From NCBI GenBank assembly GCA_016932855.1, contig JAFGCB010000014.1, forward strand, positions 6,496 to 70,495: a DNA stretch of 64,000 nt, written 5' to 3'. Each line of letters starts with the position of its first letter. The first letter of the stretch is position 1. The notes beneath the pieces were generated by a model. That model saw only the letters and a list, made by a program, of their open reading frames with translations. It ran no database searches and was not told the origin of the DNA. The translations under genes and the position numbers were made by a program. This document shows positions 20,654 through 36,265 of the stretch, in pieces. Source of the stretch: Candidatus Omnitrophota bacterium. GTDB taxonomy: Bacteria; Omnitrophota; Gorgyraeia; Duberdicusellales; Duberdicusellaceae.

Positions 20654-20697
20654 ACTCTGTATACCTCCTTAAAAATAATCCGCTTTTAAGCGTTCTT

Positions 20698-21777: not shown

Positions 21778-21779
21778 CT

Positions 21780-22073: not shown

Positions 22074-22077
22074 TTTA

Positions 22078-22991: not shown

Positions 22992-24410
22992 CTATTCAAG
23001 TTCCTGCCCGGAAGCCTGGCCGCTCTCGATAGACTGAAGAATCACCTCGACTTTGCTGCGCAGCTCATCAGCGTCCTCTTCCTTAGATAAGTCATCCTGC
23101 AGGCTTCCTCCCAAATCCATCTGACCTATCTTTTCTTTGGTAAGCGGCTCTGCCTCTAAAGTTACGTCTTCGCCCAAAAGATTGGATACCTCCCGCAGGC
23201 GTTCCTGAAGGGCGGTATTCAAACTCGTAGTTTGAGAAAGTCTTTCCAATATCTTTCTCTGATTCTCTTCGCTGCTTTTAAAAGCCTCTTCTAATTTTTC
23301 GGATTTCTCCTTTAGATAAGAAATCTGGTCTTTAATTCCGGTGATCTGCTTCTCCTTTTCGTCCAGCTCCAAGTCTTTTCGATAAAGGACATCGGAAAGC
23401 TCTTTAAGCTGGTCCCGTAATCTGTTATAAAGAGAAGTTACTGTTCTTAATCTTTCGTTCTGCAGCCTTACTTTCTCCTGCAATGCTATGGATTCGGTGC
23501 TACCGGCTATCTGGTATTCTTTCAGTTTTTCCTCAAGATCATAGACGGCTTTGCTCTTTTGGTCTAAATCAGAGTTTAGCTTAACTATCTGGTCCTGAAA
23601 ACTTTTATTGCGAAACTGAAGTTCCTCTATATCCCTTTTATATCCTTCGATCTCTACTATCAAATCGTCTTTGTTTTTATTATACGACGAGAGCTTGTCC
23701 TCAAAAGCAAGCTTCTCTTTGTCCTTTTCCTCCAATTGCCTGGTAAGCTCTTCTATGCGTCTCTGCAAAAATTGAGAGGGCTTTTCGCCGGCCAACTCCT
23801 TCTGGTATCTTTCTATGTTTTTCTTAAGAAAGTCTCTTTCTTTTATGCTTTGGGCATACCTATCTTTAAGCTCTCCCAACTCCCTGATAAGACTCTGGGT
23901 CTGTCTGTCTTTTTCTTTTATCTGCATCTTTAAACGGTTAAACTGTTCTTGCTCAAAAGCGATGTCCTGTCTGCTTTCTAAATTTAATATTTTTACCTTA
24001 GCCTCCTGCAACTGGCTTGAAAAAGTATCCAATTCTTTGATATTGGCCTGCATTTGGTTTTTCAAGGCAAAATTTTCACCTCGCAAGACATCGGATTGAG
24101 CCTTAATACTGGTCAACTCAGAGTTTAAGCTGTTAATCATATCCTGAGCGGCTGAAAGCGCCCTTTTTAAACGCTGGGGATAACTCAATTCATCTACCTT
24201 ATCGCCTAAATCATCAAGTTCGGCTTGTTTGTCTACTAAAGAAGCTGTAAGCTGCTCAATCTTTTCCTCATAAGAGCTAACTTTCTCAAGAAGTGCGGCT
24301 TTTTCTCTTTGAAGAGAGCCTAAACTAAATCCGGAAAAAATAATAAAATAACCTGCTAACAAGGCTATGCTTGCGGCTAAAACCAAAAGGATAATATTTT
24401 TTTTAAACAT
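22992..24410 (-). CDS. Membrane-anchored coiled-coil protein (possible PCP/chain-length or scaffold protein)
   Basis: N-terminal TM helix followed by about 440 aa of heptad-rich coiled coil. Confidence 0.4.
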   Translation of the reverse strand: MFKKNIILLVLAASIALLAGYFIIFSGFSLGSLQREKAALLEKVSSYEEKIEQLTASLVDKQAELDDLGDKVDELSYPQRLKRALSAAQDMINSLNSELTSIKAQSDVLRGENFALKNQMQANIKELDTFSSQLQEAKVKILNLESRQDIAFEQEQFNRLKMQIKEKDRQTQSLIRELGELKDRYAQSIKERDFLKKNIERYQKELAGEKPSQFLQRRIEELTRQLEEKDKEKLAFEDKLSSYNKNKDDLIVEIEGYKRDIEELQFRNKSFQDQIVKLNSDLDQKSKAVYDLEEKLKEYQIAGSTESIALQEKVRLQNERLRTVTSLYNRLRDQLKELSDVLYRKDLELDEKEKQITGIKDQISYLKEKSEKLEEAFKSSEENQRKILERLSQTTSLNTALQERLREVSNLLGEDVTLEAEPLTKEKIGQMDLGGSLQDDLSKEEDADELRSKVEVILQSIESGQASGQELE

Positions 24411-24420: not shown

Positions 24421-25476
24421 TTATGCGATATAAAACCCCGGGCTTCTGCTTAAATCTATTTCTTTGGGTTTTTCCAGGCGTCTTCCCTGAGAATCAATCA
24501 GAACTTTGACTAAAGGCGAGGTCGGCAAAGCGGGATTACGCCTTACGACAAAAGCTAACTCCTGGGTGTTTAAGGTAACCGGGGTTCCTCTGGGATAGAG
24601 GCCGACCTTCTCCAACAAAGCCTTTATAACTTTTTTACTGAAACTTTCTTTATTATTCAGAATTATTTTTATACACTCTTTGGCTGTATGTGCCGGCCGA
24701 TAAGGCCGTTTATGAGTAAGAGCCTCGTATACGTCAGCTAAGCCGACGATTCTGGCAAAATCATTTATCTGCTCGGCCTTAAGGCCACGGGGGTAACCTA
24801 GGCCGTTAAAACGTTCATGCTCCTGCTCCAGGGCAGCCAGTATAGAAACATCAATATCGAGCCTTATCTTTTTCAAGGCTTCCGAACCCTGTAGAGGGTG
24901 ATCTTTTATCTTTCGAAAATCAGATATGCTTAAACGCTGAGGCAGGCTGGCAATAGGTAAATAACGGCGCATACCTATGTCGTGAAGAAAGCCCGCCGCA
25001 CCAAGCTTTATTAGATCATCCTTTGATAAACTAAACCAATGTCCGATTTCTAAAGAAAGAATACAGACATTTACCAAATTCAGAGAAAGATAGTGCCCTG
25101 AAAAAGAATCATCGGAGAATATAAAATCAAAAAGCTCCTGGGTATCCTTTTCGATAAAATCCGAAAGCTCCCGTACGCAAGAAAAAATGTCACTGATGTT
25201 TATCTTCGGTGCCTCGCCTTTAAATACCTCCTCGGCTAGATTTAAAGCCCGGGAATATAAACTCTTAGCCTTGACGGAGCCTTTTTCATCAGAAAGGCTC
25301 TTTGGAATATTTAAATCTTTTTTAATCTTTGAAGAATCTAAGCTTTTTGCGCTCGATGTATCGCTCTGCCGGAAAGAAGGGAAATTAAGTTTATGAAGAG
25401 AAATTCTATCATCAACAGGTTCTTTGGAAGATTTTCTTTCATCTTCTCCTTTAGGAATCTTAGAAAAATCAACCAT
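24421..25476 (-). CDS. HD-GYP domain protein (c-di-GMP phosphodiesterase family; possibly a degenerate metal site)
   Basis: FLHDIGM ... EQEHERFNGLGYPRGLKAEQINDFARIVGLADVYEALTHKRPYR. The HHExxDGxGYP consensus is present with one His replaced. Confidence 0.6.
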   Translation of the reverse strand: MVDFSKIPKGEDERKSSKEPVDDRISLHKLNFPSFRQSDTSSAKSLDSSKIKKDLNIPKSLSDEKGSVKAKSLYSRALNLAEEVFKGEAPKINISDIFSCVRELSDFIEKDTQELFDFIFSDDSFSGHYLSLNLVNVCILSLEIGHWFSLSKDDLIKLGAAGFLHDIGMRRYLPIASLPQRLSISDFRKIKDHPLQGSEALKKIRLDIDVSILAALEQEHERFNGLGYPRGLKAEQINDFARIVGLADVYEALTHKRPYRPAHTAKECIKIILNNKESFSKKVIKALLEKVGLYPRGTPVTLNTQELAFVVRRNPALPTSPLVKVLIDSQGRRLEKPKEIDLSRSPGFYIA

Positions 25477-26209
25477 CTCCTTTTTCGCCTACTTGCTTGC
25501 AAAAACACTCCTCTAAATCTTTTTCAGCTTGAATTATTATTTCCTTATCGATTATGTCCAAATGCTTAATAAAACCGGTAAGAAGCGCCAGGTCGCAAAT
25601 ATTATTGATTATCCGGGGTATGCCGCCGGATAGCTCGTAAATCTGGCTATAGGCAGGCTCGGTAAATATGGCCCGATCAAGACCTGCGACATTCAAACGA
25701 TGAGCGATATATCTGGCTGTCTGTATGCTGTCAAAGGGATGAAGGTAATAACGGATAGAAAACCTCTGCTTAAGCTGAGGCGAACGGGATATATTCTCCA
25801 AAATAGAAGATTGACCCAAAAGAAGCAAGGTAAACAAGAAAGAATCATCGCGCTGAATATTCAAAAGAAGTCTTAATTCCTCGAGAAAATCCTCTTGGGC
25901 TATGCTCTGGGCTTCATCAACAACAAGCGCAGTATAAAAACCGCTGTCAAAATTATCTTGAAGACTCCTACTTATGGCGTGAAGTAAATCTACTTTATCC
26001 ATGGATGAGAATCCATCAGAGCCGGACAACTGATATTGTATCTCTTTTAATAAATCAACCGGGCTTAAGCGGGGATTGGATATGACCACGAATCTGAACT
26101 GATTCTGGCCGCACTCCCTTATAAGAGCTTTGCTTAAAAGGGTCTTTCCCATGCCGTATTCTCCGGTCAAGAAAAAAGCGGGCTTATGCTCCCAAACCGC
26201 ATAACTCAT
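25469..26209 (-). CDS. ExeA/GspA/MshM-like AAA ATPase
   Basis: P-loop GEYGMGKT, VVDEAQ box, C-terminal GGIPRIINNICDLAL. Resembles the secretin-associated ATPases of T2SS/MSHA and PEP-CTERM loci. Confidence 0.6.
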   Translation of the reverse strand: MSYAVWEHKPAFFLTGEYGMGKTLLSKALIRECGQNQFRFVVISNPRLSPVDLLKEIQYQLSGSDGFSSMDKVDLLHAISRSLQDNFDSGFYTALVVDEAQSIAQEDFLEELRLLLNIQRDDSFLFTLLLLGQSSILENISRSPQLKQRFSIRYYLHPFDSIQTARYIAHRLNVAGLDRAIFTEPAYSQIYELSGGIPRIINNICDLALLTGFIKHLDIIDKEIIIQAEKDLEECFCKQVGEKGDG

Positions 26210-26325
26210 ACGCGATAAAGCTTCCCTGTGCTCGGGAGAATAATAAAAAAAAGTAGGATCAACCGTATTTTCGAAAGGCTTTTTTATAAGCTTCCAATAC
26301 TCGTTATATATAGTTACCTCCTGTT

Positions 26326-26856
26326 TTATTGTTGCGGCTCTTGGGCCAAGATCTTCCTCTTGGAAAGACTCTTAAAAGAATAATCTTCGGAACCCTCGGG
26401 CTTGGGAAAGCTTATTACGCCGCCCATGCTACTTAAATCCGGGGATATTTCGCCTCGAAAGAAGGTAACCTGGTTTTCGCTTGACTGCATAGTCTCCCAA
26501 ACCACTTGTCCGTCATCCTTAAGAGATAAGGTGTAATTGGAAGGGCTAAACCCCTCTGCGACAAGCTTCTTTGAAGAAACCTGATAACCGCTAAAGACAA
26601 GGACATCTTTACTGGTATTTCCTTTCTGGGGACCGGAAGAAACCCTCATTTCAACATCCCACTCGGTATCGTTTAAAGCTTCCTGCTTCTGAGAAATCAC
26701 TTCTCTTTTTCTCTGCATCTCCAATTCCGCCTGAGATAAAGCTTTTTCTTTCCCGGCATCTTTGGCCTTGGAAGGGACTCTTCCGGAAGAGCCGTTACAG
26801 CCATATCCTACAAATACACAGATAACAAACACCGCGATAGAAATAAACCGCGTCAT
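26326..26856 (-). CDS. Putative lipoprotein, unknown function
   Basis: Signal peptide MTRFISIAVFVICVFVGYGC. The ORF-track TTG start at 26871 is less likely than the ATG at 26856 with GGGGGAAGG upstream. Confidence 0.4.
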   Translation of the reverse strand: MTRFISIAVFVICVFVGYGCNGSSGRVPSKAKDAGKEKALSQAELEMQRKREVISQKQEALNDTEWDVEMRVSSGPQKGNTSKDVLVFSGYQVSSKKLVAEGFSPSNYTLSLKDDGQVVWETMQSSENQVTFFRGEISPDLSSMGGVISFPKPEGSEDYSFKSLSKRKILAQEPQQ

Positions 26857-27040
26857 CCTTCCCCCTTTCAATGACCCCGCGCCTTTGTTTTATCCACGAT
26901 GAATGGCTCAAAGGTGCGGGGGGAATTGACCTCGAACCCCGGCTTCGCCGGGATAAGAGATCTTATTTAGATTGATCCGTTTTCAACAAGTCCTGCTTCC
27001 AGCGGGACGAAATATCTTATCTAGATTAATCAACCGCAGT

Positions 27041-27985
27041 TCACTTAATCGGTGTTTCAGCTTCCCAGGCCTGCCAAGTAAGAATGTATTTTTTTACCCA
27101 ATCCACATCCTTATCCTCTTTGCTGGCAAGCCTTAAATATTTACGGAAATAATCAATCGCCTTATTTCTATCTACCAGATATTCAGCGTAAATATAGCCT
27201 AAATTAAAATAGGCGTAGACATCTTCGGGATTAAGCCTAAGAGCCTTTTCAAACTCGGCAATCGCTCGTTTATATTGACCCTCACCGGTGTAAAAAACGC
27301 CCAGATTATAATGCATAAGGGCTGTCTCTTTGATGAGGACTTTGTTTTCCCGGGCGATCTCGGCAAATTCCTTAGGAAGCTTGCTCAACTTCTTCTCTAA
27401 TTCTTTATTAGCGCTAAGGGCTTGGTTATACTTTTTCTTAAGCTCTGAATGCTGCCTTCGGTAAAGCTTGCTCTCGGCTTTTACCGATATCTTATCGCCC
27501 TCTAACTTTTCAATTTCTTTCTCCAGACCGCTGATTTTGCGCTCCAGAAGCAGGTTATCCTTTTTAGCCTGGTCAAGCTCCCTCTTGATATCATCTACTA
27601 TTTTATATTCAACTTCCATTTTTTCAATATAATTCTTAAGTACCTCCATCTGGCTTTTAAGCTCTGAATTTTGGGCCGCAAGTTCGTCTATATACTCCTT
27701 TAAATCGGTTATTTCGGCATTCAGAGCAATCTTGTCTTGCTCAAGCTGATTATTCTTGCCCTGGACAATCCTGGCTTCATCCTGCATTTGGCGTATCTCA
27801 GTTTTATATTGAAGAAGGTTTTTGCTCTGGGCTAAAATATTGTCCCGGTCTTTAAGAAGACGCTCGTACTCCTTCTTTAACTTCTCCAGCTCAACTCTTA
27901 AGGTTGCTGCGTCTTGAGCATAGACAAGGCTAGACCCCAAAATACAGGCCACTATGAAAACTGATAAATATATGCTGTTTCTCAT
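27041..27985 (-). CDS. Signal/TM + coiled-coil + C-terminal TPR protein (secretin partner; MshN-like?)
   Basis: N-terminal hydrophobic segment, about 180 aa coiled coil, TPR repeats LGVFYTGEGQYKRAIAEFEKALRLNPEDVYAYFNLGYIY. Paralog of 29889-31019. Confidence 0.55.
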   Translation of the reverse strand: MRNSIYLSVFIVACILGSSLVYAQDAATLRVELEKLKKEYERLLKDRDNILAQSKNLLQYKTEIRQMQDEARIVQGKNNQLEQDKIALNAEITDLKEYIDELAAQNSELKSQMEVLKNYIEKMEVEYKIVDDIKRELDQAKKDNLLLERKISGLEKEIEKLEGDKISVKAESKLYRRQHSELKKKYNQALSANKELEKKLSKLPKEFAEIARENKVLIKETALMHYNLGVFYTGEGQYKRAIAEFEKALRLNPEDVYAYFNLGYIYAEYLVDRNKAIDYFRKYLRLASKEDKDVDWVKKYILTWQAWEAETPIK

Positions 27986-27991
27986 AAGTAA

Positions 27992-29779
27992 TTAAAATTC
28001 CTGAACAGGTTTTATGCCGGCTTTCTCCCCGTCCTTTTGAATATCAAGATAAGGCTGGTAAGTCTTAAAAGTCCCCAAGGCTTCTTGTTCATCAAAAGGT
28101 TTATAATCCTGATATTCCTCATCGATTTTATCCCCGAAATCCCTGCGATTGCCGGTAAACAGCTCGTCTCCTTCTATAATATGCGGAGTAACCATAACCA
28201 GAAGCTCTGTACGTTTCTTGGTCTTGCTTGAAGAACTAAAAATATTACCTAAAATAGGGATCCTACCCAGAAAAGGAACTTCTTCTCTGTTGTCGGTATC
28301 GCTTTCTTCTTTCAAGCCTCCGATAATGACGCTTGCTCCGTCCTTTACCATAACAGTAGTCTCGGTAGTGGAAGTATTAAGAATGGGTATCTTATTATCC
28401 TGAGAAGTAGTAAGATAGGAAGTAACGCTACTTATTTCGGGCTTAAGATTCAAAGTAACAAAACCTTCGTCATTAATCGTGGGGGTTATGAAAAGCTGGA
28501 TACCCACATCTAAAAATGTCACCTCTTCCGCAACCGTGGTAGTGGAAGCGGTCTGAGTAGTAGTATTGGTTATATAGGCCTGCCTTTCTCCGATATGAAT
28601 TCTTGCTTCCCGATTATTGATAACCGCTATCTTGGGAGTAGCCACAATCTTGACATCGCCTATAGTCCTTAAATACTTAAATACGACGTCAAAATCATGC
28701 TTTCCCACAATACCTACGTGCATGTTCTCGGCACCGGTAGACTTTGTTGCTGAATCATAATCAGTAGTGGTGCCGCTAAAAGGATAGCTGCCTACATAAT
28801 CCACCGGCTCTATAGACGTTCCGTCGGGTGCAAGACCTCCTTTTAAGACTGTCTGGCGTGAACGCCAGGGGTCGCTATCGCCCATAACAGCTGAAAAAGG
28901 ATATGAACCCAGGTACATCATGCCGAATTTCTCACCCACATTAAACAAACCCTCCCATTCAACTCCCTTTTCTAAAGTATCGGAAAGTCTGATCTGAATA
29001 ATCCGCACCTCAACCAAAACCTCTTTTGTCTTACGGTCCAAGCCCTGTATCAAAGTCTCTATATCCTTCATTCTCTCAGGAAGAGTCTGAACAACCACCT
29101 GATTAGTCCTCGTATCAGGCTTTATATAACCTACCTTTTTTAAATCTAATTGGCTCTTAAGCTGCTCTGTAATCTCTTTAGCCTCGGCGTATTTTAAATC
29201 AAACATCTTTATGATCGTATTCTTATTCTCCAAAGAACTGATGGCGTCTTCTATCTCTTTTATTTTCTCAGGGGTGTCCATAACCAGCAAAGTCCCCGAA
29301 TCTTCGTTTACAAAAATTTTTCCGATATCGCTTTTTAAAGCATCACACAAATCGTCGGCATGGGCAGGCACTACGTATTTAAGCCTAAAAATCTTAACTT
29401 TTCTTAAATCAGAAAAAGCTTTTCCGTAAAGATCAGAATACTCTTTCTCGGTCATAATATTCAAGATCTCGCCTCTTCTGTCATAAGCAAGGCCGTTTGA
29501 GCGGAGCATAATATCAAAGACATCCTTAATCGGAGCATCCTCAACCATAAGGGTGATCCTTCCCCTGGCGTTTTTGGTAGGTATGATATTAAGCCCGGCG
29601 GTAGTGGACAAAAATTTAAGAGCATCAGTTATATCGATATCTTTAAAATCGAGAGTTACTCTCTTTCTCATCTTAAACTCAACGCTGTCCTCGGAAAAAG
29701 CTTTTGTTAGGCTTAAGCCCGAAATAATTATAATGATTAAGAGTAAAATTGCAAATTTCCTATTCAAACCTATCTCCAC
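27992..29779 (-). CDS. Secretin (GspD/PilQ/MshL family) outer-membrane channel
   Basis: STN/secretin-N-like FKDIDITDALKFLSTTAGLNIIP. Secretin C-domain VLVEVRIIQI...TPKIAVINNREARIHIG...VMVKDGASVIIGGL...EVPFLGRIPILGNIFS...ELLVMVTPHII. Confidence 0.8.
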   Translation of the reverse strand: MEIGLNRKFAILLLIIIIISGLSLTKAFSEDSVEFKMRKRVTLDFKDIDITDALKFLSTTAGLNIIPTKNARGRITLMVEDAPIKDVFDIMLRSNGLAYDRRGEILNIMTEKEYSDLYGKAFSDLRKVKIFRLKYVVPAHADDLCDALKSDIGKIFVNEDSGTLLVMDTPEKIKEIEDAISSLENKNTIIKMFDLKYAEAKEITEQLKSQLDLKKVGYIKPDTRTNQVVVQTLPERMKDIETLIQGLDRKTKEVLVEVRIIQIRLSDTLEKGVEWEGLFNVGEKFGMMYLGSYPFSAVMGDSDPWRSRQTVLKGGLAPDGTSIEPVDYVGSYPFSGTTTDYDSATKSTGAENMHVGIVGKHDFDVVFKYLRTIGDVKIVATPKIAVINNREARIHIGERQAYITNTTTQTASTTTVAEEVTFLDVGIQLFITPTINDEGFVTLNLKPEISSVTSYLTTSQDNKIPILNTSTTETTVMVKDGASVIIGGLKEESDTDNREEVPFLGRIPILGNIFSSSSKTKKRTELLVMVTPHIIEGDELFTGNRRDFGDKIDEEYQDYKPFDEQEALGTFKTYQPYLDIQKDGEKAGIKPVQEF

Positions 29780-29888
29780 TCAACCCCGTACCTTTGAATT
29801 ATTCATCGCAGATACAGCAAAGGTGCGGGGTAAATCCGGACATAGACTTATGTTCGTCGCTTTGCTCCTCCATAAGTCTCGCCCTCAT

Positions 29889-31019
29889 TTAACTGCCTTC
29901 TATGGCCTCCTGCATAAGAAGATATTTTCTGGCCCGATCCGAATCTTCATCGGAAGGCGTAAGGCCCAAATACTTGCGGAAATGGGCGATCGCCCTGTCT
30001 CTGTCCAAAATATATTCTGAGTATATAACCCCCAAGTTGTAGTGAGCGTCGGAATCATTAGGGTCTACTTTTAGAACTTCCTGAAATTCGCTGATTGCCT
30101 TGCGGTAATCTTCCTTCTGGGTATAAAAAACCCCCAGATTATAATGAAGCACCGCTTTCTCTTTAAGAATCTCCTTATTAAGCCGGTTAAGCTCTGAAAG
30201 CTTTCTGGGAATAGTCTTGGTCTTTGACTGAAGTTCTTTGTTGTCCTTAAGCAGCTGGGTATAATTATCTTCAATACCTTTCCAGCGCTTCATCTGGGCA
30301 TCAAACAAAGCCAAGGTCTTTTCGTACTGCTTCTGGTAATAAGCCGCTTCCTTCCGGGAACTTGCCGCATCCCGCTCGTAATCTTTGCTCTGCCTGGCTA
30401 GATCGTTTTTCTGCTTAGTAACTTCTTTAAGCTTTGCCTGCAAGCTTTCTATCTTCGGGGTAAATTTTTTACTGGCTTTCTCTAAAGAGACGCTTTCTCT
30501 CTGACAGCGGGAAAGCTCCCGCTCCAAAGTGCTGTAGTTTTTCTCAAGTTCAAGATACTCGCGTTTGATATTCGCCGATACCGCTTCCAAATCATAATAC
30601 TTGCTGTCAAAACTGCTTATTTCTTTTTTGTAAGCGCTAAGCTCCTCTTTGGCCATGTTTTTCTCTTCGGTTAAAGCCTCGTTCGCCTGAAAAACAATAT
30701 CAAGCTGTTCTTTAAGTTCAACAACCTCGCCTTCAAGCTCGGCGTACTGACTTTCCAAATCTTTGTAATCCAGCTTAGCTTTATCCAAATCCCCTGCAAG
30801 AGACTCGTTCTCCTGCCCGAGGACTTTCTTTTCCTGTTTTAAAGACGTAAGTTCATCTTTGATTTTTTTATAGTCTTTATTAAGCTGGGTATATTTTTCA
30901 CGCAGAGAAGAAACATCCTTATTAAAGCCGAATAAGAACTTACCTACAAGAGCCAATAGACAGATTAAAAGGACTAAAGAAATGCCGATTTTTATTCCGA
31001 TACTAATCTTTTTAGCCAT
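29889..31019 (-). CDS. TM + coiled-coil + C-terminal TPR protein (paralog of 27041-27985)
   Basis: Same architecture. TPR LHYNLGVFYTQKEDYRKAISEFQEVLKVDPNDSDAHYNLGVIYSEY. Confidence 0.55.
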   Translation of the reverse strand: MAKKISIGIKIGISLVLLICLLALVGKFLFGFNKDVSSLREKYTQLNKDYKKIKDELTSLKQEKKVLGQENESLAGDLDKAKLDYKDLESQYAELEGEVVELKEQLDIVFQANEALTEEKNMAKEELSAYKKEISSFDSKYYDLEAVSANIKREYLELEKNYSTLERELSRCQRESVSLEKASKKFTPKIESLQAKLKEVTKQKNDLARQSKDYERDAASSRKEAAYYQKQYEKTLALFDAQMKRWKGIEDNYTQLLKDNKELQSKTKTIPRKLSELNRLNKEILKEKAVLHYNLGVFYTQKEDYRKAISEFQEVLKVDPNDSDAHYNLGVIYSEYILDRDRAIAHFRKYLGLTPSDEDSDRARKYLLMQEAIEGS

Positions 31020-31022
31020 AGC

Positions 31023-32828
31023 TCACCTTTCAGGTTTAAAAGATTTAAATTTTACCTCTTTCTCCTCTTTGGCTTCGAGTTTTAAACCTTCTCGGTAATA
31101 GCCTTTGGTCGACTTGGTGGGCTGCGTTCCGATAGGTTCTCCGCGTTCGCCCACCAGGACATCGCCGCTAATCAAAGTAGGAGTAATCATAATCAAAAGT
31201 TCGGTTCTCTCATCGTGAGGCGCGTTTGAAGTGAAAAACTTACCCAGGAAAGGTATGCTCCCCAAAAAAGGAGTAGTCTTTTTCTTTACCCCTTTTACTT
31301 CCCCCCGCAAACCTCCGATAACAATCGTAGAACCGCTCTTGGCCATAACCGTTGTCTCGGCCAGAGAAGTATCAATAATGGGGATCTTATTATCCGAGGG
31401 CGTAGTTAATACCGAAACTACGCTGCTTACCTCAGTTTTAATCTTAAGAGTAATGTAGCCCTCTTCGTTTATATTGGGAGTTATATACAGCTGAGTTCCT
31501 ACATCGACAAAAGTGACTTCTTCGGATACGGTACTGGTAGTCTGGCCGGTAGTGGTAGTGGTGGTTACATAAGCCTGTTTCTCTCCGACGTGGATCTTTG
31601 CTTCCTGGTCATCGGTAATGGTTATCTTAGGGGTAGCAAGAATATTAGTCTCTTCTATTTCTTTAAAAAATTTCATAATAATATCGAAATCGTGCTTTCC
31701 GACAATACCCAGGTGTATCTCGTCTAAACCGGAAGTTTTATTGCCGGCGGTAACGTCTACAGCTGTACCGCTAAAAGGATAGGCTCCGACATAGCCTGCG
31801 CCGACCACTGTTGTTGTCCCATCGCCTATTTTGCCTCCGTCCATAACTACCTTGCGCGAACGCCAGGGATCAGCCGCTGCCTGAACCGAAGCAAAAGGAG
31901 TCGAGCCCAGATAAGTAAGGCCGTGTTCCCGGGCCACATCAAAAAGACCCTCCCACTCAACGTCCTCGGTTAAATCATCGGTGAGTTTTACTTTTATTAT
32001 TTTGGCTTCGATAAGTACTTCCCTGGTCTTTCTATCTAATCTCTTAATTAATTCCTCGATTTGGCGCATCCTTTCGGGAAGAGTCTGAACAAGAACTTGA
32101 TTCGTCCTTTCGTCAGCCCGTACTGAGCCGACCTTCTTAGCTTCAAGCTGAGTTTTAAGCTGGGCAGCGACGTCTTCTGCTTTGGCATAATTAATATTAA
32201 ATGCTTTTACGACATTCCTTTCTTCAAAACTCTTTATAGCCTCTTCTATTTGAGCGATGGAAGCCTCGGAATCCATAAGCACAACTGTCCCGGACTCAGG
32301 GGAAACCAGAACCCTTCCTACATCGCTCTTTAAAGTGTCGCATAAGTTAAAGATCTGCTCAGGAATAGCATAAGCAAGATTGATTATTTTTACCTTACGG
32401 ATATCGGAAAAATTCTTTCCGTATAAGGCCTTGTACTCCTGCTCGGTCATAACATTATAAATACCTGATTTTTTATCATAGGCCAGGTCATTGGCCCTTA
32501 GCATTACATCAAAAATATCCTTAATAGGCGTATCTCTAACGCTTAAGCTTACTCTTCCTTCAACCTGGTTAGTGGTTACGATGTTTACCTCGGCCTTCAT
32601 GGCCAGAAATTTCAAAGCCTCAACCACATCGATATTTTTTAAATCCAGAGAGATACTTCCTTTCATATCCGAAGTATTTGGCGCCGGCAACGAGGAATCC
32701 AGGGAAGCCAGTTCCAAGACCTCTTCTTGAGCATACACAAAAGAAACCGCTGCTATGCAAAAAATAAAAAATAATGACCGTCTAAGCTTATGTCTTTCGG
32801 CTCGGGCTATAAATCTTTTCCTCTTCAT
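31023..32828 (-). CDS. Secretin (second paralog)
   Basis: Same domain order and motifs as 27992-29779: VLIEAKIIKV..., TPKITITDDQEAKIHVG, VMAKSGSTIVIGGL..TTPFLGSIPFLGKFF..ELLIMITPTLI. Confidence 0.8.
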   Translation of the reverse strand: MKRKRFIARAERHKLRRSLFFIFCIAAVSFVYAQEEVLELASLDSSLPAPNTSDMKGSISLDLKNIDVVEALKFLAMKAEVNIVTTNQVEGRVSLSVRDTPIKDIFDVMLRANDLAYDKKSGIYNVMTEQEYKALYGKNFSDIRKVKIINLAYAIPEQIFNLCDTLKSDVGRVLVSPESGTVVLMDSEASIAQIEEAIKSFEERNVVKAFNINYAKAEDVAAQLKTQLEAKKVGSVRADERTNQVLVQTLPERMRQIEELIKRLDRKTREVLIEAKIIKVKLTDDLTEDVEWEGLFDVAREHGLTYLGSTPFASVQAAADPWRSRKVVMDGGKIGDGTTTVVGAGYVGAYPFSGTAVDVTAGNKTSGLDEIHLGIVGKHDFDIIMKFFKEIEETNILATPKITITDDQEAKIHVGEKQAYVTTTTTTGQTTSTVSEEVTFVDVGTQLYITPNINEEGYITLKIKTEVSSVVSVLTTPSDNKIPIIDTSLAETTVMAKSGSTIVIGGLRGEVKGVKKKTTPFLGSIPFLGKFFTSNAPHDERTELLIMITPTLISGDVLVGERGEPIGTQPTKSTKGYYREGLKLEAKEEKEVKFKSFKPER

Positions 32829-33511
32829 TTCAGCTCTTTTTCCTGCCCCTGGTATCGTAATATCACTTTATCTTTAAAAATACCGGCCACTTCAACCTCG
32901 CCTATGAAATCGCCGCGTTTTAAAAAAAAGGTTTTCTGGGCTTTAGTGTCCTCTATCATCGCATCAGGGTCATCCGACCAGGAAATACCCACCAGCTTAA
33001 GATTGGCGGTCATCTTCGCTACCTCTTTTACAGGATCTTGTTTGGCCGCCTCTTCGCCTTCTTTTTTAGCTTCATCCTTTATCTCTTTGGAAGTCATCTT
33101 GAAAATATCTCTTTTTCGTGCTTTCTCAAGATAGAAAGAAGGATTTTTTAAAAAAGCAATATCCTTAACATTAAAGCCCTTAATGTCTCTATCAATTTTA
33201 AAGGCAGAATCAACCTGCTCTTTGATCCCCAGCATCGAGGTTGCCAAGTCAAAAGACATGAAAGAAAAAATCCCTAAAGCAGCGATGATTAAAAGCTTAT
33301 TTATATCAGTGATATCCAGGCTTACTTGCCCGGAGAAAACCTTAAACAAACTTACCTTAAAGAAGGAAAACCTGCCTCTAAGCCCTCCCAAAGAAAAAAG
33401 GCTTAAGCCTTTGCGCAGAGAACCTTTACCGGCAAAGGAAGAACCTGCCTTTTTTTCTTCGATCAATTTAAGTAATTCCCTCTCGGGAGTGGGAGACTGA
33501 TTCTCAGCCAT
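32825..33511 (-). CDS. Inner-membrane secretin-associated protein, GspC/PilP-like (tentative)
   Basis: Single TM. C-terminal beta-rich FFLKRGDFIGEVEVAGIFKDKVILRYQGQEKEL resembles the PilP/GspC homology region. 4-nt overlap with the secretin gene. Confidence 0.35.
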   Translation of the reverse strand: MAENQSPTPERELLKLIEEKKAGSSFAGKGSLRKGLSLFSLGGLRGRFSFFKVSLFKVFSGQVSLDITDINKLLIIAALGIFSFMSFDLATSMLGIKEQVDSAFKIDRDIKGFNVKDIAFLKNPSFYLEKARKRDIFKMTSKEIKDEAKKEGEEAAKQDPVKEVAKMTANLKLVGISWSDDPDAMIEDTKAQKTFFLKRGDFIGEVEVAGIFKDKVILRYQGQEKELK

Positions 33512-34982
33512 CGCCTTCTTTTTGCTTATCCGGCATACTGTCCGGCGTTATGTATACCTTAACATCAGCGCTTCTTTTTAATTCTTCTTTCCATTCGCCG
33601 AAGGCTTTATGTTTTTTAATGTTTCTTACCAGCTCAAAATAGCCTTCTTTTCTAGGCTCGAATCCCTCGGGATTGGCTCTGCGTATTTTTAAGATTTTAA
33701 AAGCACCGTATCCTTTATATATCGGAAAAGGCGTGTAGAAAGAGCCAGGAGGCTCTTTAAGCATGTCATAAGCGCCTTCTCTTTGGAAACCCCAGATATT
33801 AATAAGAAAATCCAAGGCTACAAATCCCGGCCGTTTAAAGGATTTTGGCTTCCTGCGCCTCTCTTCCTGCCAAGCTCCGGGGCCTCTATCGATTTTCTTG
33901 TAAAATTCCTTGGCATTATTGAAGGTATCAAAACGAAGCATGTCTTTACCTTCGGAGTGTTTGTCAAAAAAGTTACTATAAGCTTTCTCTACGCTACGGC
34001 TATCTTTAAGAAATTCCTGATAATCTGCTTCATTAACTTCCGGTTCCTCGCCTTGGAAAATTTTCTGTCTTAAAATATCGACCTTAACCAGATGGGCTAT
34101 TCGGGCCCTAAAATCCTCTTCGGATAAATTAAAGTCATCTTCCAGCCAGGCCTTAAAATCATCCTTATCTGTCTGCCAATTAAAATCGACATCCAAATCT
34201 ATTAATAAATACTTAATGGTTCCGTCTACCAGAGAAGCCTCGACTTCTATTCCCCGCTGTAAGGCCGCAAGGGAAAAAACAAGGTCCTGCCAGATTAAAT
34301 CCTCTAAATCTTTTTCGGTAGTAGGCATTGCTGCCTGCTCATAAAAATCCTGGGCTTCTTTTAAATCATCGAACTGGACAAGCTCTACCGAAAGGCTATT
34401 GTATTCATCAAGAAACTTCTGTCTTGCTTCTTCTTCGCTTACCTCGGGCTCGATGCCGTCAATAACCTGAAGTCTTAGCTTTTCAAGCTTAACCAAATGT
34501 TCGACAAGATTCTCGAAAAACTCAACCGAAACCTTTAAATTTTCAGTTACCCAATCCTCGTAAGCCTGCCTGTCGGTTTTCCAATCAAAAGACACTTTTT
34601 CTGCCTGTAAAATCTTTTCTATCTCCGCGCTCTTTTCCTCCGGCGTTGCCTGAATGCCCCTTCTGAAAGCTTCGAAAGAAAGAAGAAGCTCCTGCCAGGT
34701 AAGTTCCTCCAGCTCCTCTTCGGTTTGCGGCGTTTTACCCCTCCACTTGGCGCTAAATGATAAAACCGCAGTCTTGGCAAAGTAGTAATTTCCTATGGGA
34801 ACCGGCACGCCGAAAAATTCTCCGGCAAGCTGAGAAGTATCCGGTATTTCTTCTCTGGCCGACGGCTCTGCTAACTCGACTATTTGGTCAGGAATATTTT
34901 CTTCTACAGGCTTACTGCAGGACAAAACAAACCCCAGCATAAAAAAGATAAGATACTTAAAAATTCTAGTTGGTTGCATCAA
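33504..34982 (-). CDS. Lipoprotein with two internal about 100-aa repeats; possible SurA/parvulin-like periplasmic chaperone
   Basis: Lipobox FVLSCS. Repeats ELTWQELLLSFEAFRRGIQ / DLIWQDLVFSLAALQRGIE. The C-terminus FYTPFPIYKGYGAFKILKI is parvulin-like. Confidence 0.3.
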   Translation of the reverse strand: MMQPTRIFKYLIFFMLGFVLSCSKPVEENIPDQIVELAEPSAREEIPDTSQLAGEFFGVPVPIGNYYFAKTAVLSFSAKWRGKTPQTEEELEELTWQELLLSFEAFRRGIQATPEEKSAEIEKILQAEKVSFDWKTDRQAYEDWVTENLKVSVEFFENLVEHLVKLEKLRLQVIDGIEPEVSEEEARQKFLDEYNSLSVELVQFDDLKEAQDFYEQAAMPTTEKDLEDLIWQDLVFSLAALQRGIEVEASLVDGTIKYLLIDLDVDFNWQTDKDDFKAWLEDDFNLSEEDFRARIAHLVKVDILRQKIFQGEEPEVNEADYQEFLKDSRSVEKAYSNFFDKHSEGKDMLRFDTFNNAKEFYKKIDRGPGAWQEERRRKPKSFKRPGFVALDFLINIWGFQREGAYDMLKEPPGSFYTPFPIYKGYGAFKILKIRRANPEGFEPRKEGYFELVRNIKKHKAFGEWKEELKRSADVKVYITPDSMPDKQKEGDG

Positions 34983-35836
34983 CTCTCTCTGGCCAAGGAA
35001 ACAGCCGTATGCCAGCCTTTCTGAATATCTTTCTGGACCAAATCATTTATTAAACGCGCGTCAACCGCGTGCCTGTTACGCAGTATAAGCTCCTTTAAAG
35101 CCCTGTGGCAAAGCAGGGTTATTTTCCTAGGATAACCACCGGTATAACTATATATTTGCCCGATTGCATCATCTAAAAAAAGATGCATGTTGGAGGTGTA
35201 GCCAGCTTCTTTTATCCGGAACTCAATCATCTCTTTAGTCTCCGCGCGGCTTAAAGGATTAAGGGTGTATTTAAAGCTTACCCTGTCGAGAAAATTAGAG
35301 ATATTGACAACCTTGGAATGAAGCTCAAGCTGGCCCAAAAGCACAAGCTGCAAGAGCTTGAATTCATTGGTCTCGTAGTTAAGCAAAACCCTTAATGTCT
35401 CAAGAGAGCTTTCGTTTAGCTTCTGGGCCTCATCGATAATCAAAACTACTGTCTTTGACTCGATAACGCCTTTCTGAAAAAGAAACTTCTCCAGGGCTTC
35501 TTTCAGAGAAACTCTGGTATCCTGGCTTTGAGCGGAAATAGCGAAGCTGCGGGTAAGATAATCAAGAAAGGTCCTCTCGTCATCAAAAGAAGGGTCTAAA
35601 ACAATATGGAAAATGAAATCATCCCTGTCTTTCAACTCCTGGATAAGCTTGCGGGATAAAGAAGTCTTACCCGTGCCCACATCGCCTAAGATTACGCTTA
35701 AACCTCTCTTAAGACGCAACTCTATAAGAATATTAGCTAAAGCTGTATCGTGGTCTTTGGCCAAATAGAGAAAATCCGGATCGGGGCTGGTGGAAAAAGG
35801 CTCTTTATTAAAACCCAATATTTTAAAGTAACTCAT
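34979..35836 (-). CDS. ExeA/GspA/MshM-like AAA ATPase (second copy)
   Basis: P-loop GDVGTGKTS, IIDEAQ box, C-terminal GGYPRKITLLCHRAL. Confidence 0.6.
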   Translation of the reverse strand: MSYFKILGFNKEPFSTSPDPDFLYLAKDHDTALANILIELRLKRGLSVILGDVGTGKTSLSRKLIQELKDRDDFIFHIVLDPSFDDERTFLDYLTRSFAISAQSQDTRVSLKEALEKFLFQKGVIESKTVVLIIDEAQKLNESSLETLRVLLNYETNEFKLLQLVLLGQLELHSKVVNISNFLDRVSFKYTLNPLSRAETKEMIEFRIKEAGYTSNMHLFLDDAIGQIYSYTGGYPRKITLLCHRALKELILRNRHAVDARLINDLVQKDIQKGWHTAVSLARES

Positions 35837-36025: not shown

Positions 36026-36265
36026 TTATGCGTGCTTTCGCAACATGTTGCGGATAAGCCTTAAAGGATAGCCCTCGTCCTTGAGGCGGGAAATCCGGTC
36101 TAATACCGCCAGGACTTCCTTCTCCTCGTAGAGGCGCTTATTGCCCTTACGCTTTACCACCGATAAAAAACCCAAGTTAGTGTAATGATTGATAGTAGGG
36201 TAAGAAATATCATACCTGGAAGATATCTCCTTGGCTGAAATCAATTTACTGTTTGTTCCCATCAT
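36026..36265 (-). CDS. MerR-family HTH DNA-binding protein (small)
   Basis: ISAKEISSRYDISYPTINHYTNLGFLSVVKRKGNKRLYEEKEV is a MerR-type wing-HTH. Confidence 0.5.
   Translation of the reverse strand: MMGTNSKLISAKEISSRYDISYPTINHYTNLGFLSVVKRKGNKRLYEEKEVLAVLDRISRLKDEGYPLRLIRNMLRKHA

What the first reader, a model, noticed from the sequence alone, without database searches (positions are those of the whole stretch)
25469..35836. Tandemly duplicated secretin + coiled-coil/TPR modules with two ExeA-like ATPases but no pilus or T2SS/T4P machinery
Two paralogous pairs of [secretin (GspD/PilQ-like) + downstream TM-coiled-coil-TPR protein] sit at 27041-29779 and 29889-32828. They are flanked by two ExeA/GspA/MshM-like AAA ATPases (25469-26209, 34979-35836), a GspC/PilP-like protein and a repeat lipoprotein. 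This resembles the MshL/MshM/MshN trio of MSHA pili, but no pilin, prepilin peptidase, GspE/PilB ATPase or platform genes are in the 64 kb. The modules sit directly next to Wza, Wzc, Wzx and glycosyltransferases. One possibility is a secretin-based polysaccharide or protein export route, analogous in logic to TPR+barrel exporters (BcsC, PgaA, AlgK/E). Haft's PEP-CTERM loci carry a similar ExeA-like ATPase, yet no exosortase or PEP-CTERM substrate is recognisable here.
Basis: partly seen in the sequence, partly recalled or inferred. Interest (0 to 1): 0.7.

Follow-up and report, generated by a model that had tools for sequence, protein, structure and literature searches.

The report
Outer half of split type II secretion system
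This stretch of an uncultured Omnitrophota genome encodes the outer-membrane half (two paralogous secretin channels with their helper proteins) of a type II secretion-like machine whose motor and filament genes most likely lie elsewhere in the genome, so it is an unusual variant of a known machine rather than a new polysaccharide exporter.

Summary
The window (a Candidatus Omnitrophica MAG) carries, on the minus strand:
- two secretins, 50% identical to each other;
- a coiled-coil/TPR protein after each secretin;
- two ExeA/MshM-like AAA ATPases;
- a GspC-like protein;
- a repeat lipoprotein.
No pilin, GspE or GspF gene lies in the 64 kb.

In 83 related loci the module is a conserved Omnitrophota cassette found in many genomic contexts. 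In two metagenome contigs carrying one such locus, the cassette is followed directly by gspE, gspF, pseudopilins (J, K), a GspL-like protein and gspM. In another locus, J/K-like pseudopilins directly precede a double-secretin cassette.

Conversely, four of four Omnitrophota gspE–gspF loci lack a secretin and a gspC within 10 kb. These loci sit next to giant ORFs and an F-type ATPase, and one of them shows the full gspE-to-gspM set. The window therefore most likely holds the gspA-like/gspC/gspD half of a split T2SS-like machine.

The Wza/EPS block does follow the double-secretin cassette consistently in this lineage. In one complete genome, however, it lies about 830 kb away. Secretin-mediated polysaccharide export therefore stays speculative.

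What is new is the ancient, retained tandem secretin+TPR duplication. I rate this a new variant of a known kind, of moderate interest.

The parts
36026..36265 (-). Small MerR-type HTH protein (79 aa) that heads the cassette.
   Evidence: Pfam MerR_1, E 2.6e-9. A homologue precedes the cassette in most related loci, and often a second copy precedes secretin-2.
34979..35836 (-). ATPase A: cytoplasmic ExeA/GspA/MshM-like AAA+ ATPase with no TM segment or peptidoglycan-binding domain.
   Evidence: AAA_22, E 1.9e-21. TIGR03015 at 189.9 bits, below the 324.5 cut-off. Walker A is GDVGTGKT and Walker B is IIDEAQ. It is 61-77% identical in relatives. It precedes the GspC-like gene in 48 of 56 loci.
33504..34982 (-). 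Repeat lipoprotein of the SurA_N/PpiD-like periplasmic chaperone family.
   Evidence: Lipobox VLSC. Internal repeat, E 4e-24. The window copy has no Pfham-level hit of its own (no Pfam hit). Aligned orthologues hit SurA_N_2/SurA_N_3 (15 hits), Rotamase_2 (4) and cyclophilin Pro_isomerase (6 single-secretin-type members, E 2e-55).
32825..33511 (-). GspC-like bitopic protein: conserved cytoplasmic N-terminal peptide (TPEKQLL.LIE), one TM helix and a periplasmic HR-like domain.
   Evidence: Pfam T2SSC at 28.4 bits (gathering score 27). NF041515 GspC_delta at 35.7 bits, below 150. A profile of orthologues hits the GspC HR structure 3oss_C weakly, E 0.045. It is immediately followed by a secretin in 65 of 65 loci.
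31023..32828 (-). Secretin-1 (601 aa): the paralogue that always follows the GspC-like gene.
   Evidence: Pfam Secretin, Secretin_N x2 and STN. Below the NCBIfam cut-offs for GspD, PilQ and MshL. Equidistant from PilQ and GspD structures. It forms its own clade in the NJ tree.
29889..31019 (-). Coiled-coil/TPR partner 1 (376 aa): N-terminal membrane anchor, about 250 aa of coiled coil and a C-terminal 2-3 repeat TPR.
   Evidence: TPR_1/2/8/11 hits at residues 289-357. 79 of 82 secretins in relatives are followed by such a gene. Length in relatives is 305-1300 aa.
27992..29779 (-). Secretin-2 (595 aa): the paralogue never preceded by a GspC-like gene.
   Evidence: Pfam Secretin E 1.7e-48, Secretin_N x2, STN and GspD N0. 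50% identical to secretin-1. Separate clade with topology parallel to the secretin-1 clade.
27041..27985 (-). Coiled-coil/TPR partner 2 (314 aa).
   Evidence: TPR hits at residues 221-298. 31% identical to partner 1.
26326..26871 (-). Small exported, probably lipidated protein with a conserved beta-rich C-terminal domain. Function unknown; a pilotin-like role is only a guess.
   Evidence: Conserved after partner 2 in nearly all related loci. No PDB or Pfam match. The single-sequence AF2 model was unusable, pLDDT 44.
25469..26209 (-). ATPase B: second ExeA/MshM-like AAA+ ATPase, shortened at the N-terminus.
   Evidence: AAA_22, E 5e-18. TIGR03015 at 138 bits, matching profile positions 36-265 only. 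Related double-secretin loci carry A only, B only or both, and every complete locus has at least one.
24421..25476 (-). HD-GYP-type protein, a putative c-di-GMP phosphodiesterase or receptor.
   Evidence: Pfam HD_5, E 3.5e-20. HD and GYP motifs are present. The window copy reads HERFNGLGYP where most orthologues read HERxDGSGYP. It overlaps ATPase B by 8 nt.
22992..24410 (-). Membrane-anchored coiled-coil protein (472 aa). It travels with the Wza-like gene, not with the secretins.
   Evidence: No Pfam domain. In CP070807.1 its counterpart sits directly upstream of Wza, far from the secretin cassette.
22078..22950 (-). Wza-like OPX protein, the first gene of the neighbouring EPS/RiPP block. It is a conserved neighbour in this lineage, not shown to be part of the secretin machine.
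   Evidence: Poly_export + SLBB. TIGR03027 at 119.5 bits, below 180. The AF2 model (pLDDT 84.7) matches Wza and WzaB at E about 1e-15. It follows the coiled-coil gene in every related locus that reaches that far.

Best explanation
The region is the outer-membrane/periplasmic half of an Omnitrophota-type type II secretion (type IV filament superfamily) machine.

**Proposed roles (all inferred)**
- The two secretins form outer-membrane channels.
- The bitopic GspC-like protein ties secretin-1 to the inner membrane through its HR-like domain. It probably presents its conserved cytoplasmic N-terminal peptide to the ExeA/MshM-like ATPase, by analogy with GspA-GspB.
- Each secretin has a dedicated membrane-anchored coiled-coil/TPR partner, analogous to MshN or TadD. 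Together with the SurA-like lipoprotein and the small lipoprotein, it probably helps the secretin assemble or stay in the envelope.
- The HD-GYP protein, together with the MshEN and PilZ domains of the distant GspE, points to c-di-GMP control.
- The motor (GspE), platform (GspF), pseudopilins (G, J, K) and GspL/M are encoded elsewhere in the genome. In relatives they sit beside an F-type ATPase operon and giant ORFs.
- The likely cargo is folded periplasmic proteins, possibly large surface proteins.

**Shown**
- Domain identities, paralogy and cassette conservation.
- Physical linkage of orthologous cassettes to T2SS genes in some relatives.
- Absence of a secretin and gspC from the gspE-gspF loci examined.

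**Inferred**
- That this particular genome has the E-M genes elsewhere.
- The protein contacts and the cargo.
- The reason for keeping two secretins.
For: **Cassette conservation.** In 83 related loci, 79 of 82 secretins are followed by a coiled-coil/TPR gene. 65 of 65 GspC-like genes are followed by a secretin. 48 of 56 GspC-like genes are preceded by ATPase A. Flanking genes differ between loci: ribosomal genes/dnaB in L003, hydrogenase/MCP in L004.

**Direct linkage to T2SS genes**
- In L048 the order is ATPase A (67% identical to the window's), GspC-like, secretin (53%) and TPR partner. These are followed at once by T2SSE+MshEN+PilZ, T2SSF, an N_methyl pilin, T2SSJ, T2SSK, a PilM+PilN fusion and T2SSM_b. 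L049, from a second metagenome, shows the same junction as far as gspE.
- In L030, N_methyl and T2SSJ pseudopilins and a GspK-like gene directly precede a double-secretin cassette.
- In L039, PilM_2 and PilO genes lie about 6 kb upstream.
- A 158-aa protein that follows gspM in L086 has a 47%-identical homologue after the TPR gene in L036.

**Complementarity.** Four of four contexts of GspE orthologues (60-66% identical to the L048 GspE) show giant ORF, F-type ATPase, small MshEN protein, GspE and GspF, with no secretin or GspC within 10 kb. L086 also shows G, J, K, L and M.

**The distant cluster is T2SS-like.** GspG scores 136 bits, above the 88.85 cut-off. GspE, GspF, GspJ, GspK and GspM are the top hits for the other genes, all below their cut-offs.

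**Literature.** Type IV filament systems are often split over several loci (shown for T4aP and ComM). MshM is a mandatory MSH component, and MshN is homologous to the secretin-assembly factor TadD (PMC6668835). T2SS-like loci near Omnitrophota giant genes are reported in 10.1101/2023.11.21.568195.
Against: - No E-M gene was seen in this genome. Only about 71 kb of the MAG could be read.
- Co-occurrence of the cassette and an E-M cluster in one and the same genome was not demonstrated, except where they are fused (L048/L049).
- Only 3 of about 50 long related loci show adjacent T2SS genes.
- Both secretins score below the GspD, PilQ and MshL cut-offs. The GspC assignment rests on a borderline Pfam score.
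- Nothing explains why two secretin/TPR pairs are kept.
- Nothing explains why the double cassette is so consistently followed by the coiled-coil/Wza block.
Confidence: 0.68

Rival explanations
1. Secretin-coupled polysaccharide export. Secretin-2, with its TPR partner, serves as the outer-membrane conduit for the adjacent Wza-like OPX protein and the Wzx/Wzy/Wzc pathway. It would replace the beta-barrel porin that short OPX proteins normally need.
For: - The order HD-GYP, coiled-coil protein, Wza-like gene is found in every double-secretin locus that reaches that far. That is 7 metagenome loci plus the window and L089, across about 50% secretin divergence.
- The genes run as one tight minus-strand series from 36265 to 17552.
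- The OPX has a single SLBB and no Pfam Wza_C.
- Class-3 OPX proteins need a separate porin (PMC9603273, PMC12819527).
- The Pfam scans of the window's ORFs returned no outer-membrane beta-barrel family.
Against: - In complete genome CP070807.1 the block of coiled-coil protein, Wza, PqqD, rSAM, ScmC, S24/NTP_transf_5, Wzc and Wzy is intact next to the dcw genes. It lies about 830 kb from the secretin cassette, whose secretin-2 is truncated there.
- Single-secretin cassettes have no Wza nearby and are followed by large secreted proteins instead.
- The cassette is joined to T2SS genes in relatives.
- The AF2 model of the OPX has a 28-residue C-terminal helix that might itself reach the membrane, so a porin may not be needed.
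- No secretin is known to pass polysaccharide.
Confidence: 0.08
2. A self-contained secretin system with no pseudopilus. The AAA_22 ATPases, the GspC-like protein and the coiled-coil/TPR proteins would form a complete trans-envelope device that opens or assembles the secretins by themselves. It would be a new kind of secretin-based exporter.
For: - Most related loci (about 47 of 50 long ones) show no type IV filament genes within 10 kb.
- The cassette has its own regulators (MerR; often a histidine kinase and response regulator) and always at least one ATPase.
- Single-secretin cassettes are followed by a conserved family of 900-2200 aa secreted proteins that could be a dedicated cargo.
Against: - The ATPases are small cytoplasmic AAA_22 proteins with no membrane segment. 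Their relatives (GspA/ExeA, MshM) are accessory factors, not secretion motors (established knowledge; PMC6668835).
- Fusion with complete T2SS gene sets in L048/L049, and with pseudopilins in L030.
- The gspE-gspF loci examined lack exactly the parts this cassette provides.
Confidence: 0.12
3. The secretins serve a surface type IVa/MSHA-like pilus (PilQ/MshL role in adhesion, motility or DNA uptake) rather than protein secretion.
For: - Seymour et al. call T4aP in nearly all Omnitrophota using TXSScan (PMC10066038).
- The GspE orthologue has an MshEN domain, and the L/M-like proteins hit PilM/PilN/PilO.
- The secretin profile scores PilQ (167 bits) as high as GspD (161 bits).
- The order secretin, TPR, MshEN-ATPase, platform in L048 mirrors mshL-N-E-G.
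Against: - The major subunit in the E-M cluster passes the GspG equivalog cut-off (136 against 88.85).
- J, K and M are T2SS-type, and GspE/GspF score higher for the T2SS models than for PilB/PilC.
- The linker protein hits T2SSC, not PilP.
- No PilT was seen in the loci read.
Confidence: 0.12

Closest known systems
Type II secretion system with GspA/GspB (ExeA/ExeB) secretin-assembly factors (Aeromonas, Vibrio)
   Same: - A secretin with N0 + Secretin_N + secretin domains, and a GspC-type HR-domain linker directly upstream.
- An ExeA-like P-loop ATPase at the head of the cluster.
- In relative L048 the order is A-C-D-(TPR)-E-F-pseudopilins-L-M.
- A GspG-type major pseudopilin is present in the distant cluster of another relative (L086).
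   Different: - The ATPase is cytoplasmic only, with no TM segment and no peptidoglycan-binding domain.
- No recognisable GspB. A coiled-coil/TPR protein follows each secretin instead.
- The secretin and its TPR partner are duplicated in tandem.
- The system is split, with the E-M genes at another locus beside an F-type ATPase and giant ORFs.
- Extra components: a SurA-like lipoprotein, a small lipoprotein, an HD-GYP protein and a MerR-type protein.
- All family scores fall below the curated cut-offs.
MSHA pilus mshL-mshM-mshN-mshE-mshG block (Vibrio cholerae)
   Same: - A trio of secretin, ExeA-like cytoplasmic ATPase and TPR protein.
- The assembly ATPase of the relatives carries the c-di-GMP-binding MshEN domain.
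- The order secretin, TPR, ATPase, platform is seen in L048.
   Different: - MSH loci are almost always a single locus (PMC6668835), whereas this system is split.
- The TIGR02519 MshL scores (172 and 141 bits) are below the 250 cut-off.
- The pseudopilins are GspG/J/K-type.
- The TPR protein has a long coiled coil.
- There are two secretins.
XrtA/PEP-CTERM EPS loci with the TIGR03015 ATPase (Haft)
   Same: - Best NCBIfam hits are TIGR03015 for both ATPases, TIGR03027 for the Wza-like gene, and TIGR03007/TIGR03018 for the Wzc-like gene.
- An EPS gene cluster lies next door.
   Different: - All scores are below the cut-offs.
- No exosortase, EpsI or PEP-CTERM protein is present in the window.
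- The ATPases are embedded among secretin genes, not EPS genes.
Class-3 OPX / Wzp porin polysaccharide translocons (Myxococcus WzaB-WzpB)
   Same: The neighbouring OPX has Poly_export plus a single SLBB and resembles the WzaB crystal structure 9n9a (Foldseek E 3.5e-15).
   Different: - No Wzp-like beta-barrel gene was found nearby.
- The OPX has an N-terminal TPR-like hairpin and a predicted C-terminal helix.
- Any link to the secretins is by synteny only.

Membership tests
T2SS secretin GspD (TIGR02517) | Whole-protein score at or above the equivalog cut-off of 351.35 bits. | tested here: not met
   239.1 bits (secretin-2) and 217.3 bits (secretin-1). The Pfam Secretin, Secretin_N and STN domains are all present.
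Type IV pilus secretin PilQ (TIGR02515) | Score at or above 284.35 bits. | tested here: not met
   238.8 and 219.2 bits. No AMIN domain hit. PDB profile scores for PilQ and GspD are nearly equal.
MSHA pilus (MshL/MshM/MshN/MshE/MshG/MshA) | MshL equivalog score at or above 250.2 bits. | tested here: not met
   172.4 and 141.5 bits.
MSHA pilus (MshL/MshM/MshN/MshE/MshG/MshA) | The mandatory genes mshA, mshE and mshG present, normally in the same single locus (PMC6668835). | tested here: not met
   No pilin motif, T2SSE or T2SSF in the 64 kb (Pfam). MshM-like ATPase and MshN-like TPR analogues are present.
Type II secretion system (gspC-M) | GspC HR-domain protein next to the secretin. | tested here: inconclusive
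   Pfam T2SSC at 28.4 bits against a gathering score of 27 (met). TIGR01713 at 19 bits against 101.6, and NF041515 at 35.7 against 150 (not met). The profile hits 3oss_C at E 0.045.
Type II secretion system (gspC-M) | GspE, GspF, GspG and minor pseudopilins, GspL and GspM encoded in the same genome. | not testable with these tools
   They are absent from the window and from the 7 kb beyond it, and the rest of the MAG could not be read. In relatives they are either fused to the cassette (L048/L049, L030) or lie in secretin-less loci. The GspG of L086 passes its cut-off, 136 against 88.85.
XrtA/PEP-CTERM system ATPase (TIGR03015) | Score at or above 324.5 bits. | tested here: not met
   189.9 and 138.2 bits.
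XrtA/PEP-CTERM system ATPase (TIGR03015) | An exosortase (EpsH/XrtA) and PEP-CTERM proteins in the neighbourhood. | tested here: not met
   No exosortase family hit in the Pfam scans of essentially all minus-strand ORFs of 100 aa or more and the two plus-strand ABC genes.
GspA/ExeA | AAA ATPase fused to a TM segment and a periplasmic peptidoglycan-binding domain, paired with GspB. | tested here: not met
   The proteins are 285 and 246 aa and show only the AAA_22 region, with no TM segment, PG_binding or T2SSB hit.
OPX (Wza family), for the neighbouring gene | Poly_export (PES) domain plus SLBB. | tested here: met
   Pfam Poly_export at 82.5 bits and SLBB_2 at 35.6 bits. Foldseek to Wza 2j58 and WzaB 9n9a at E about 1e-15.
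OPX (Wza family), for the neighbouring gene | C-terminal outer-membrane-spanning helix (Class 1) or none (Class 3). | tested here: inconclusive
   No Wza_C hit. The AF2 model shows a helix at residues 257-284 whose pLDDT falls from 84 to 44.

The most novel reading that the evidence does not exclude
The retained second secretin/TPR pair, with ATPase B and the HD-GYP protein, is not a spare T2SS pore. It would instead be a dedicated outer-membrane conduit for the adjacent short-OPX Wzx/Wzy polysaccharide pathway. That would be the first case of a secretin passing a polysaccharide, standing in for the Wzp-type porin of Class-3 OPX systems.
Probability: 0.08. Interest if true: 0.85.

Novelty: new variant of a known kind. 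Interest (0 to 1): 0.4.

Why it matters
Omnitrophota are ultra-small, uncultured bacteria, probably predatory or parasitic. Their giant proteins are thought to be delivered by T2SS-like machines.

This analysis suggests that the secretin-less gspE–gspF loci next to the giant ORFs are completed by a separate, phylum-wide cassette. That cassette holds GspA-like ATPases, GspC, secretin(s) and a new class of coiled-coil/TPR secretin partners.

The ancient tandem duplication of secretin plus partner has been kept over long divergence. I found no description of it in the searchable literature. It raises testable questions about heteromeric or specialised secretin pores.

The result also removes a tempting but weakly founded claim of a secretin-based polysaccharide exporter.

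Tried and rejected
- **Exact look-ups that failed.** Secretin-2 and the 183-aa end gene were not on record, probably because of start-codon differences.
- **GTDB scan with a single protein.** I therefore could not search complete genomes for co-occurrence of the cassette and gspE.
- **Same-genome proof.** No gspE hit carried the locus-tag prefix of this MAG (JW734_) or of CP070807.1 (JSW40_).
- **Literature.** Searches for Omnitrophota secretins and for tandem or second secretins found nothing relevant.
- **Rfam.** No hit in the whole window, and no c-di-GMP riboswitch.
- **Promoter/terminator scan.** Counts did not differ from shuffles.
- **TPR tails against the PDB.** Only generic consensus TPR hits, so no specific PilF/PilW/TadD relationship can be claimed.
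- **ATPase A against the PDB.** No hit.
- **Small lipoprotein.** No PDB hit with a profile. The single-sequence AF2 model was unusable, pLDDT 44, because alignments with locus-derived sequences are not accepted by the predictor.
- **Large secreted proteins of single-secretin loci.** They have no homologue in the window.
- **Rejected readings.** Filamentous-phage pIV and T3SS secretin: there are no phage or T3SS genes, and the profile scores are much lower (85 bits for 7ofh, 66 bits for InvG).

Full report
**1. What is in the window**

The 64-kb window comes from a Candidatus Omnitrophica MAG. The window's secretin-1 is 100% identical to an NCBI protein with locus tag JW734_01470 on a 73.7-kb contig. 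Part of the region was also found in a Logan assembly of SRR13394437.

Almost all genes run on the minus strand. In transcription order, the finding's coordinates correspond exactly to these ORFs:

| Coordinates | Gene product |
|---|---|
| 36026-36265 | MerR-type HTH protein |
| 34979-35836 | ATPase A |
| 33504-34982 | 492-aa lipoprotein |
| 32825-33511 | GspC-like protein |
| 31023-32828 | secretin-1 |
| 29889-31019 | coiled-coil/TPR partner 1 |
| 27992-29779 | secretin-2 |
| 27041-27985 | coiled-coil/TPR partner 2 |
| 26326-26871 | small lipoprotein |
| 25469-26209 | ATPase B |
| 24421-25476 | HD-GYP protein |
| 22992-24410 | anchored coiled-coil protein |

Profile searches confirm the identities.
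- Both secretins have Secretin, two Secretin_N stretches and STN.
- Both ATPases are AAA_22 proteins. Their best NCBIfam hit is the PEP-CTERM ATPase TIGR03015, at 190 and 138 bits against a cut-off of 324.5.
- The 228-aa protein just reaches the T2SSC gathering score (28.4 against 27).

The paralogy is real: the secretins are 50% identical, the TPR partners 31% and the ATPases 29%.

The lipoprotein contains an internal repeat, E 4e-24. Through its orthologues it belongs to a SurA_N/PpiD-like chaperone family. Members of that family in other loci carry cyclophilin or parvulin-type PPIase domains.

No prepilin motif, GspE Walker box or T2SS E-M homologue occurs anywhere in the window. Pfam scans of the remaining ORFs found none either. 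The roughly 7 kb beyond the window start holds only more EPS genes.

**2. The cassette is a conserved Omnitrophota module in changing surroundings**

Homologues of the secretin with 50% identity or more are abundant, and the named ones are almost all Omnitrophota. I collected 83 related loci: 4 from GTDB genomes, 77 from metagenomes and 2 by exact look-up. I annotated them by BLAST against the window's proteins.

The core is very regular:
- 79 of 82 secretins with a complete downstream gene are followed by a coiled-coil/TPR gene.
- All 65 GspC-like genes are immediately followed by a secretin.
- 48 of 56 GspC-like genes are preceded by ATPase A.

Two variants exist.
- **Double variant** (27 loci, including the window type). 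Order: MerR, [ATPase A], [SurA-like], GspC-like, secretin-1, TPR-1, [MerR], secretin-2, TPR-2, small lipoprotein, [ATPase B], HD-GYP. Every complete locus has at least one of the two ATPases.
- **Single variant.** Order: histidine kinase, response regulator, ATPase A, GspC-like, secretin, TPR, small lipoprotein, SurA-like/cyclophilin protein. It ends with a member of a conserved family of 900-2200-aa secreted proteins.

The genes around the cassette differ. They are ribosomal genes and dnaB in the complete genome CP070807.1, and hydrogenase and chemotaxis genes in a 646-kb contig.

An NJ tree puts the GspC-associated secretin-1 and the secretin-2 sequences into separate clades with parallel internal topology. 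The duplication is therefore old, and both copies have been kept.

**3. The cassette belongs to a type II secretion-like machine**

Three lines of evidence link it to the missing machinery.

(i) *Fusion with a full T2SS set.* In L048 the cassette is followed directly by these genes:
- a GspE with MshEN and PilZ domains;
- GspF;
- an N-methyl pilin;
- T2SSJ and T2SSK;
- a PilM-PilN fusion (GspL-like);
- T2SSM_b.

In that cassette ATPase A is 67% identical to the window's and the secretin 53%. L049, from a second and independent metagenome, shows the same junction as far as gspE. An assembly chimera is therefore unlikely. This reproduces the classical order gspA, C, D, E, F, pseudopilins, L, M.

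(ii) *Other linkages.*
- In L030 a double-secretin cassette is directly preceded by an N-methyl pilin, a T2SSJ pseudopilin and a GspK-like protein.
- In L039, PilM_2 and PilO genes lie about 6 kb upstream.
- A 158-aa protein that follows gspM in L086 has a 47%-identical homologue after the TPR gene in L036.

(iii) *Complementary gene content.* The GspE orthologue is widespread in Omnitrophota at 60-66% identity. In four of four long contigs it sits in the arrangement giant ORF (more than 2600 to more than 4300 aa), F-type ATPase operon, small MshEN protein, GspE, GspF. In L086 this is followed by GspG, a pilin, GspJ, GspK, a GspL-like protein and GspM. None of the four has a secretin or GspC within 10 kb.

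The L086 genes are T2SS-type. GspG passes its equivalog cut-off (136 against 88.85 bits). The best models for the others are GspE, GspF, GspJ, GspK and GspM, all below their cut-offs.

This is the locus type that Seymour et al. describe as a type-4a pilus cluster next to a "symbiotic" F-type ATPase (PMC10066038). West-Roberts et al. separately report a T2SS-like locus (gspD, gspE, gspF, rcpC, a Rotamase_2 isomerase) next to giant genes (10.1101/2023.11.21.568195).

Split loci are common in this superfamily, notably for T4aP and ComM. MshM is a mandatory MSH gene, and MshN is homologous to the secretin-assembly factor TadD (PMC6668835).

The most economical reading is that the window holds the gspA-like/gspC/gspD half of a split T2SS-like machine. 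I could not read the rest of this MAG. The presence of the E-M half in this particular genome is therefore an inference.

**4. How it probably works**

All of the following is inference from domain content, gene order and knowledge of GspA/B, GspC-GspD and MshM/N.
- The secretins form the outer-membrane pores.
- The GspC-like protein has a strongly conserved cytoplasmic N-terminal peptide (TPEKQLL.LIE), one TM helix and an HR-like domain. It can link the N0 domain of secretin-1 to the inner membrane, and possibly to ATPase A, whose gene usually overlaps or adjoins it.
- Each coiled-coil/TPR protein is anchored at its N-terminus and ends in a highly conserved 2-3 repeat TPR. It probably binds or stabilises its own secretin. 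Its length varies from 305 to 1300 aa, which argues against a simple periplasmic ruler.
- The SurA-like lipoprotein and the small lipoprotein may chaperone the secretin or the cargo.
- The HD-GYP protein fits c-di-GMP control together with the MshEN and PilZ domains of GspE. The window copy has Asn in place of the Asp of the DGxGYP motif.

The secretins are equidistant from PilQ and GspD structures. They fall below all curated secretin cut-offs, so they form a distinct subfamily.

**5. The polysaccharide hypothesis**

Evidence in its favour:
- The Wza-like gene is a genuine OPX. It has Poly_export and one SLBB, and its AF2 model (pLDDT 84.7) matches Wza and WzaB at E about 1e-15.
- The order HD-GYP, coiled-coil protein, Wza holds in every double-secretin locus that reaches that far.
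- L089 repeats the window's order as far as the ABC-2 transporter, Wzc and Wzy.

Evidence against:
- In the complete genome CP070807.1 the block of coiled-coil protein, Wza, PqqD, rSAM, small ORF, ScmC, S24/NTP_transf_5, Wzc and Wzy lies next to the dcw genes at 0.97 Mb. The secretin cassette lies at 1.80 Mb, with its secretin-2 reduced to the N-domains.
- Single-secretin cassettes have no Wza next to them.
- Within the window, a convergent ABC-2 pair separates the Wzc/Wzy/Wzx/glycosyltransferase genes from the secretin-to-NTP_transf_5 gene run.
- The OPX model also has a C-terminal helix of uncertain confidence, so even the need for a separate pore is unclear.

I rate secretin-mediated polysaccharide export at about 8%.

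**6. Verdict**

The thing itself is a new variant of a known kind: a split, MSHA-flavoured T2SS whose outer half carries an ancient tandem duplication of secretin plus coiled-coil/TPR partner.

Interest is moderate at 0.4. The duplication and the new partner family are worth structural study. However, the headline idea of an orphan or polysaccharide secretin is not supported.

Noticed in passing
window 17552-22124 (-), small ORF at 20489-20653 (-): A RiPP-like cassette sits inside the EPS block: PqqD, rSAM/SPASM, a conserved Cys-rich 54-aa ORF (MMTKKTYQKPALSQVDLVPQEALLTGCKRSDGSNGKSESCPPVNPGKCSKDSGS), a ScmC/HprK-like P-loop protein, an S24-like peptidase+GNAT and NTP_transf_5. The small ORF has an orthologue in CP070807.1 (L088:12305-12463). 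The whole cassette recurs next to Wza and Wzc in other Omnitrophota.
   Followed up: partly
L005:18971-21704, L023:8244-11239, L038:17872-21614, L039:18942-21914, L045:15030-21671, L056:14958-18969, L060:8760-11878, L065:16330-19601: Single-secretin cassettes are followed by a conserved family of large secreted proteins (900-2200+ aa). They have no Pfam hit and share an N-terminal motif like AVQIKRVQTGDxYFDxDDT after the signal peptide. They are candidate cargo or surface components. The window has no homologue.
   Followed up: partly
L086, L087, L090, L091 (each 1-13500): The Omnitrophota GspE (MshEN+T2SSE+PilZ) and GspF genes always follow an extra F-type ATPase operon and a giant ORF (more than 2600 to more than 4300 aa, running off the locus). 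A small stand-alone MshEN protein lies just before GspE.
   Followed up: partly
L003:13994-15427 (CP070807.1): In this complete genome the second secretin is cut down to its N-terminal domains (Secretin_N only). The small lipoprotein, ATPase B and HD-GYP genes are missing, and Pth and ribosomal protein genes follow directly.
   Followed up: no
window 24421-25476 (-): The HD-GYP protein of the window (and of L016) has Asn where orthologues have the Asp of HERxDGSGYP. All members read EH instead of the usual HH before the motif. It may be a degenerate receptor rather than an active phosphodiesterase.
   Followed up: partly
window 38687-49054 (-): A trehalose/maltose-type cluster lies upstream: TreT-like glycosyltransferase, DUF5752, two GH65 phosphorylases, a HAD+trehalose-phosphatase fusion, a GT4 glycosyltransferase and a HAD protein, followed by an MscS-like channel.
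   Followed up: no
window 51868-62111 (-): A partner-switching set is interleaved with an MlaD/E/F-like ABC system. The set comprises two STAS proteins, an HATPase_c_2 anti-sigma-type kinase and a CHASE2-SpoIIE phosphatase. It is followed by a 1219-aa signal-peptide coiled-coil protein with no Pfam domain.
   Followed up: no
L036:5187-7682; also reversed ORFs of 818-835 aa in L032 and L042: In L036, an STT3/PglB-type oligosaccharyltransferase (831 aa) and glycosyltransferases follow a single-secretin cassette. Reversed ORFs of similar length occupy the same position in L032 and L042 but were not scanned against any family library. This hints at protein glycosylation near the machine.
   Followed up: no
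83 related loci: The coiled-coil/TPR partner has a bimodal length: most are 305-413 aa, but many partner-1 copies are 550-1300 aa. The C-terminal TPR module stays about 60% identical throughout.
   Followed up: partly
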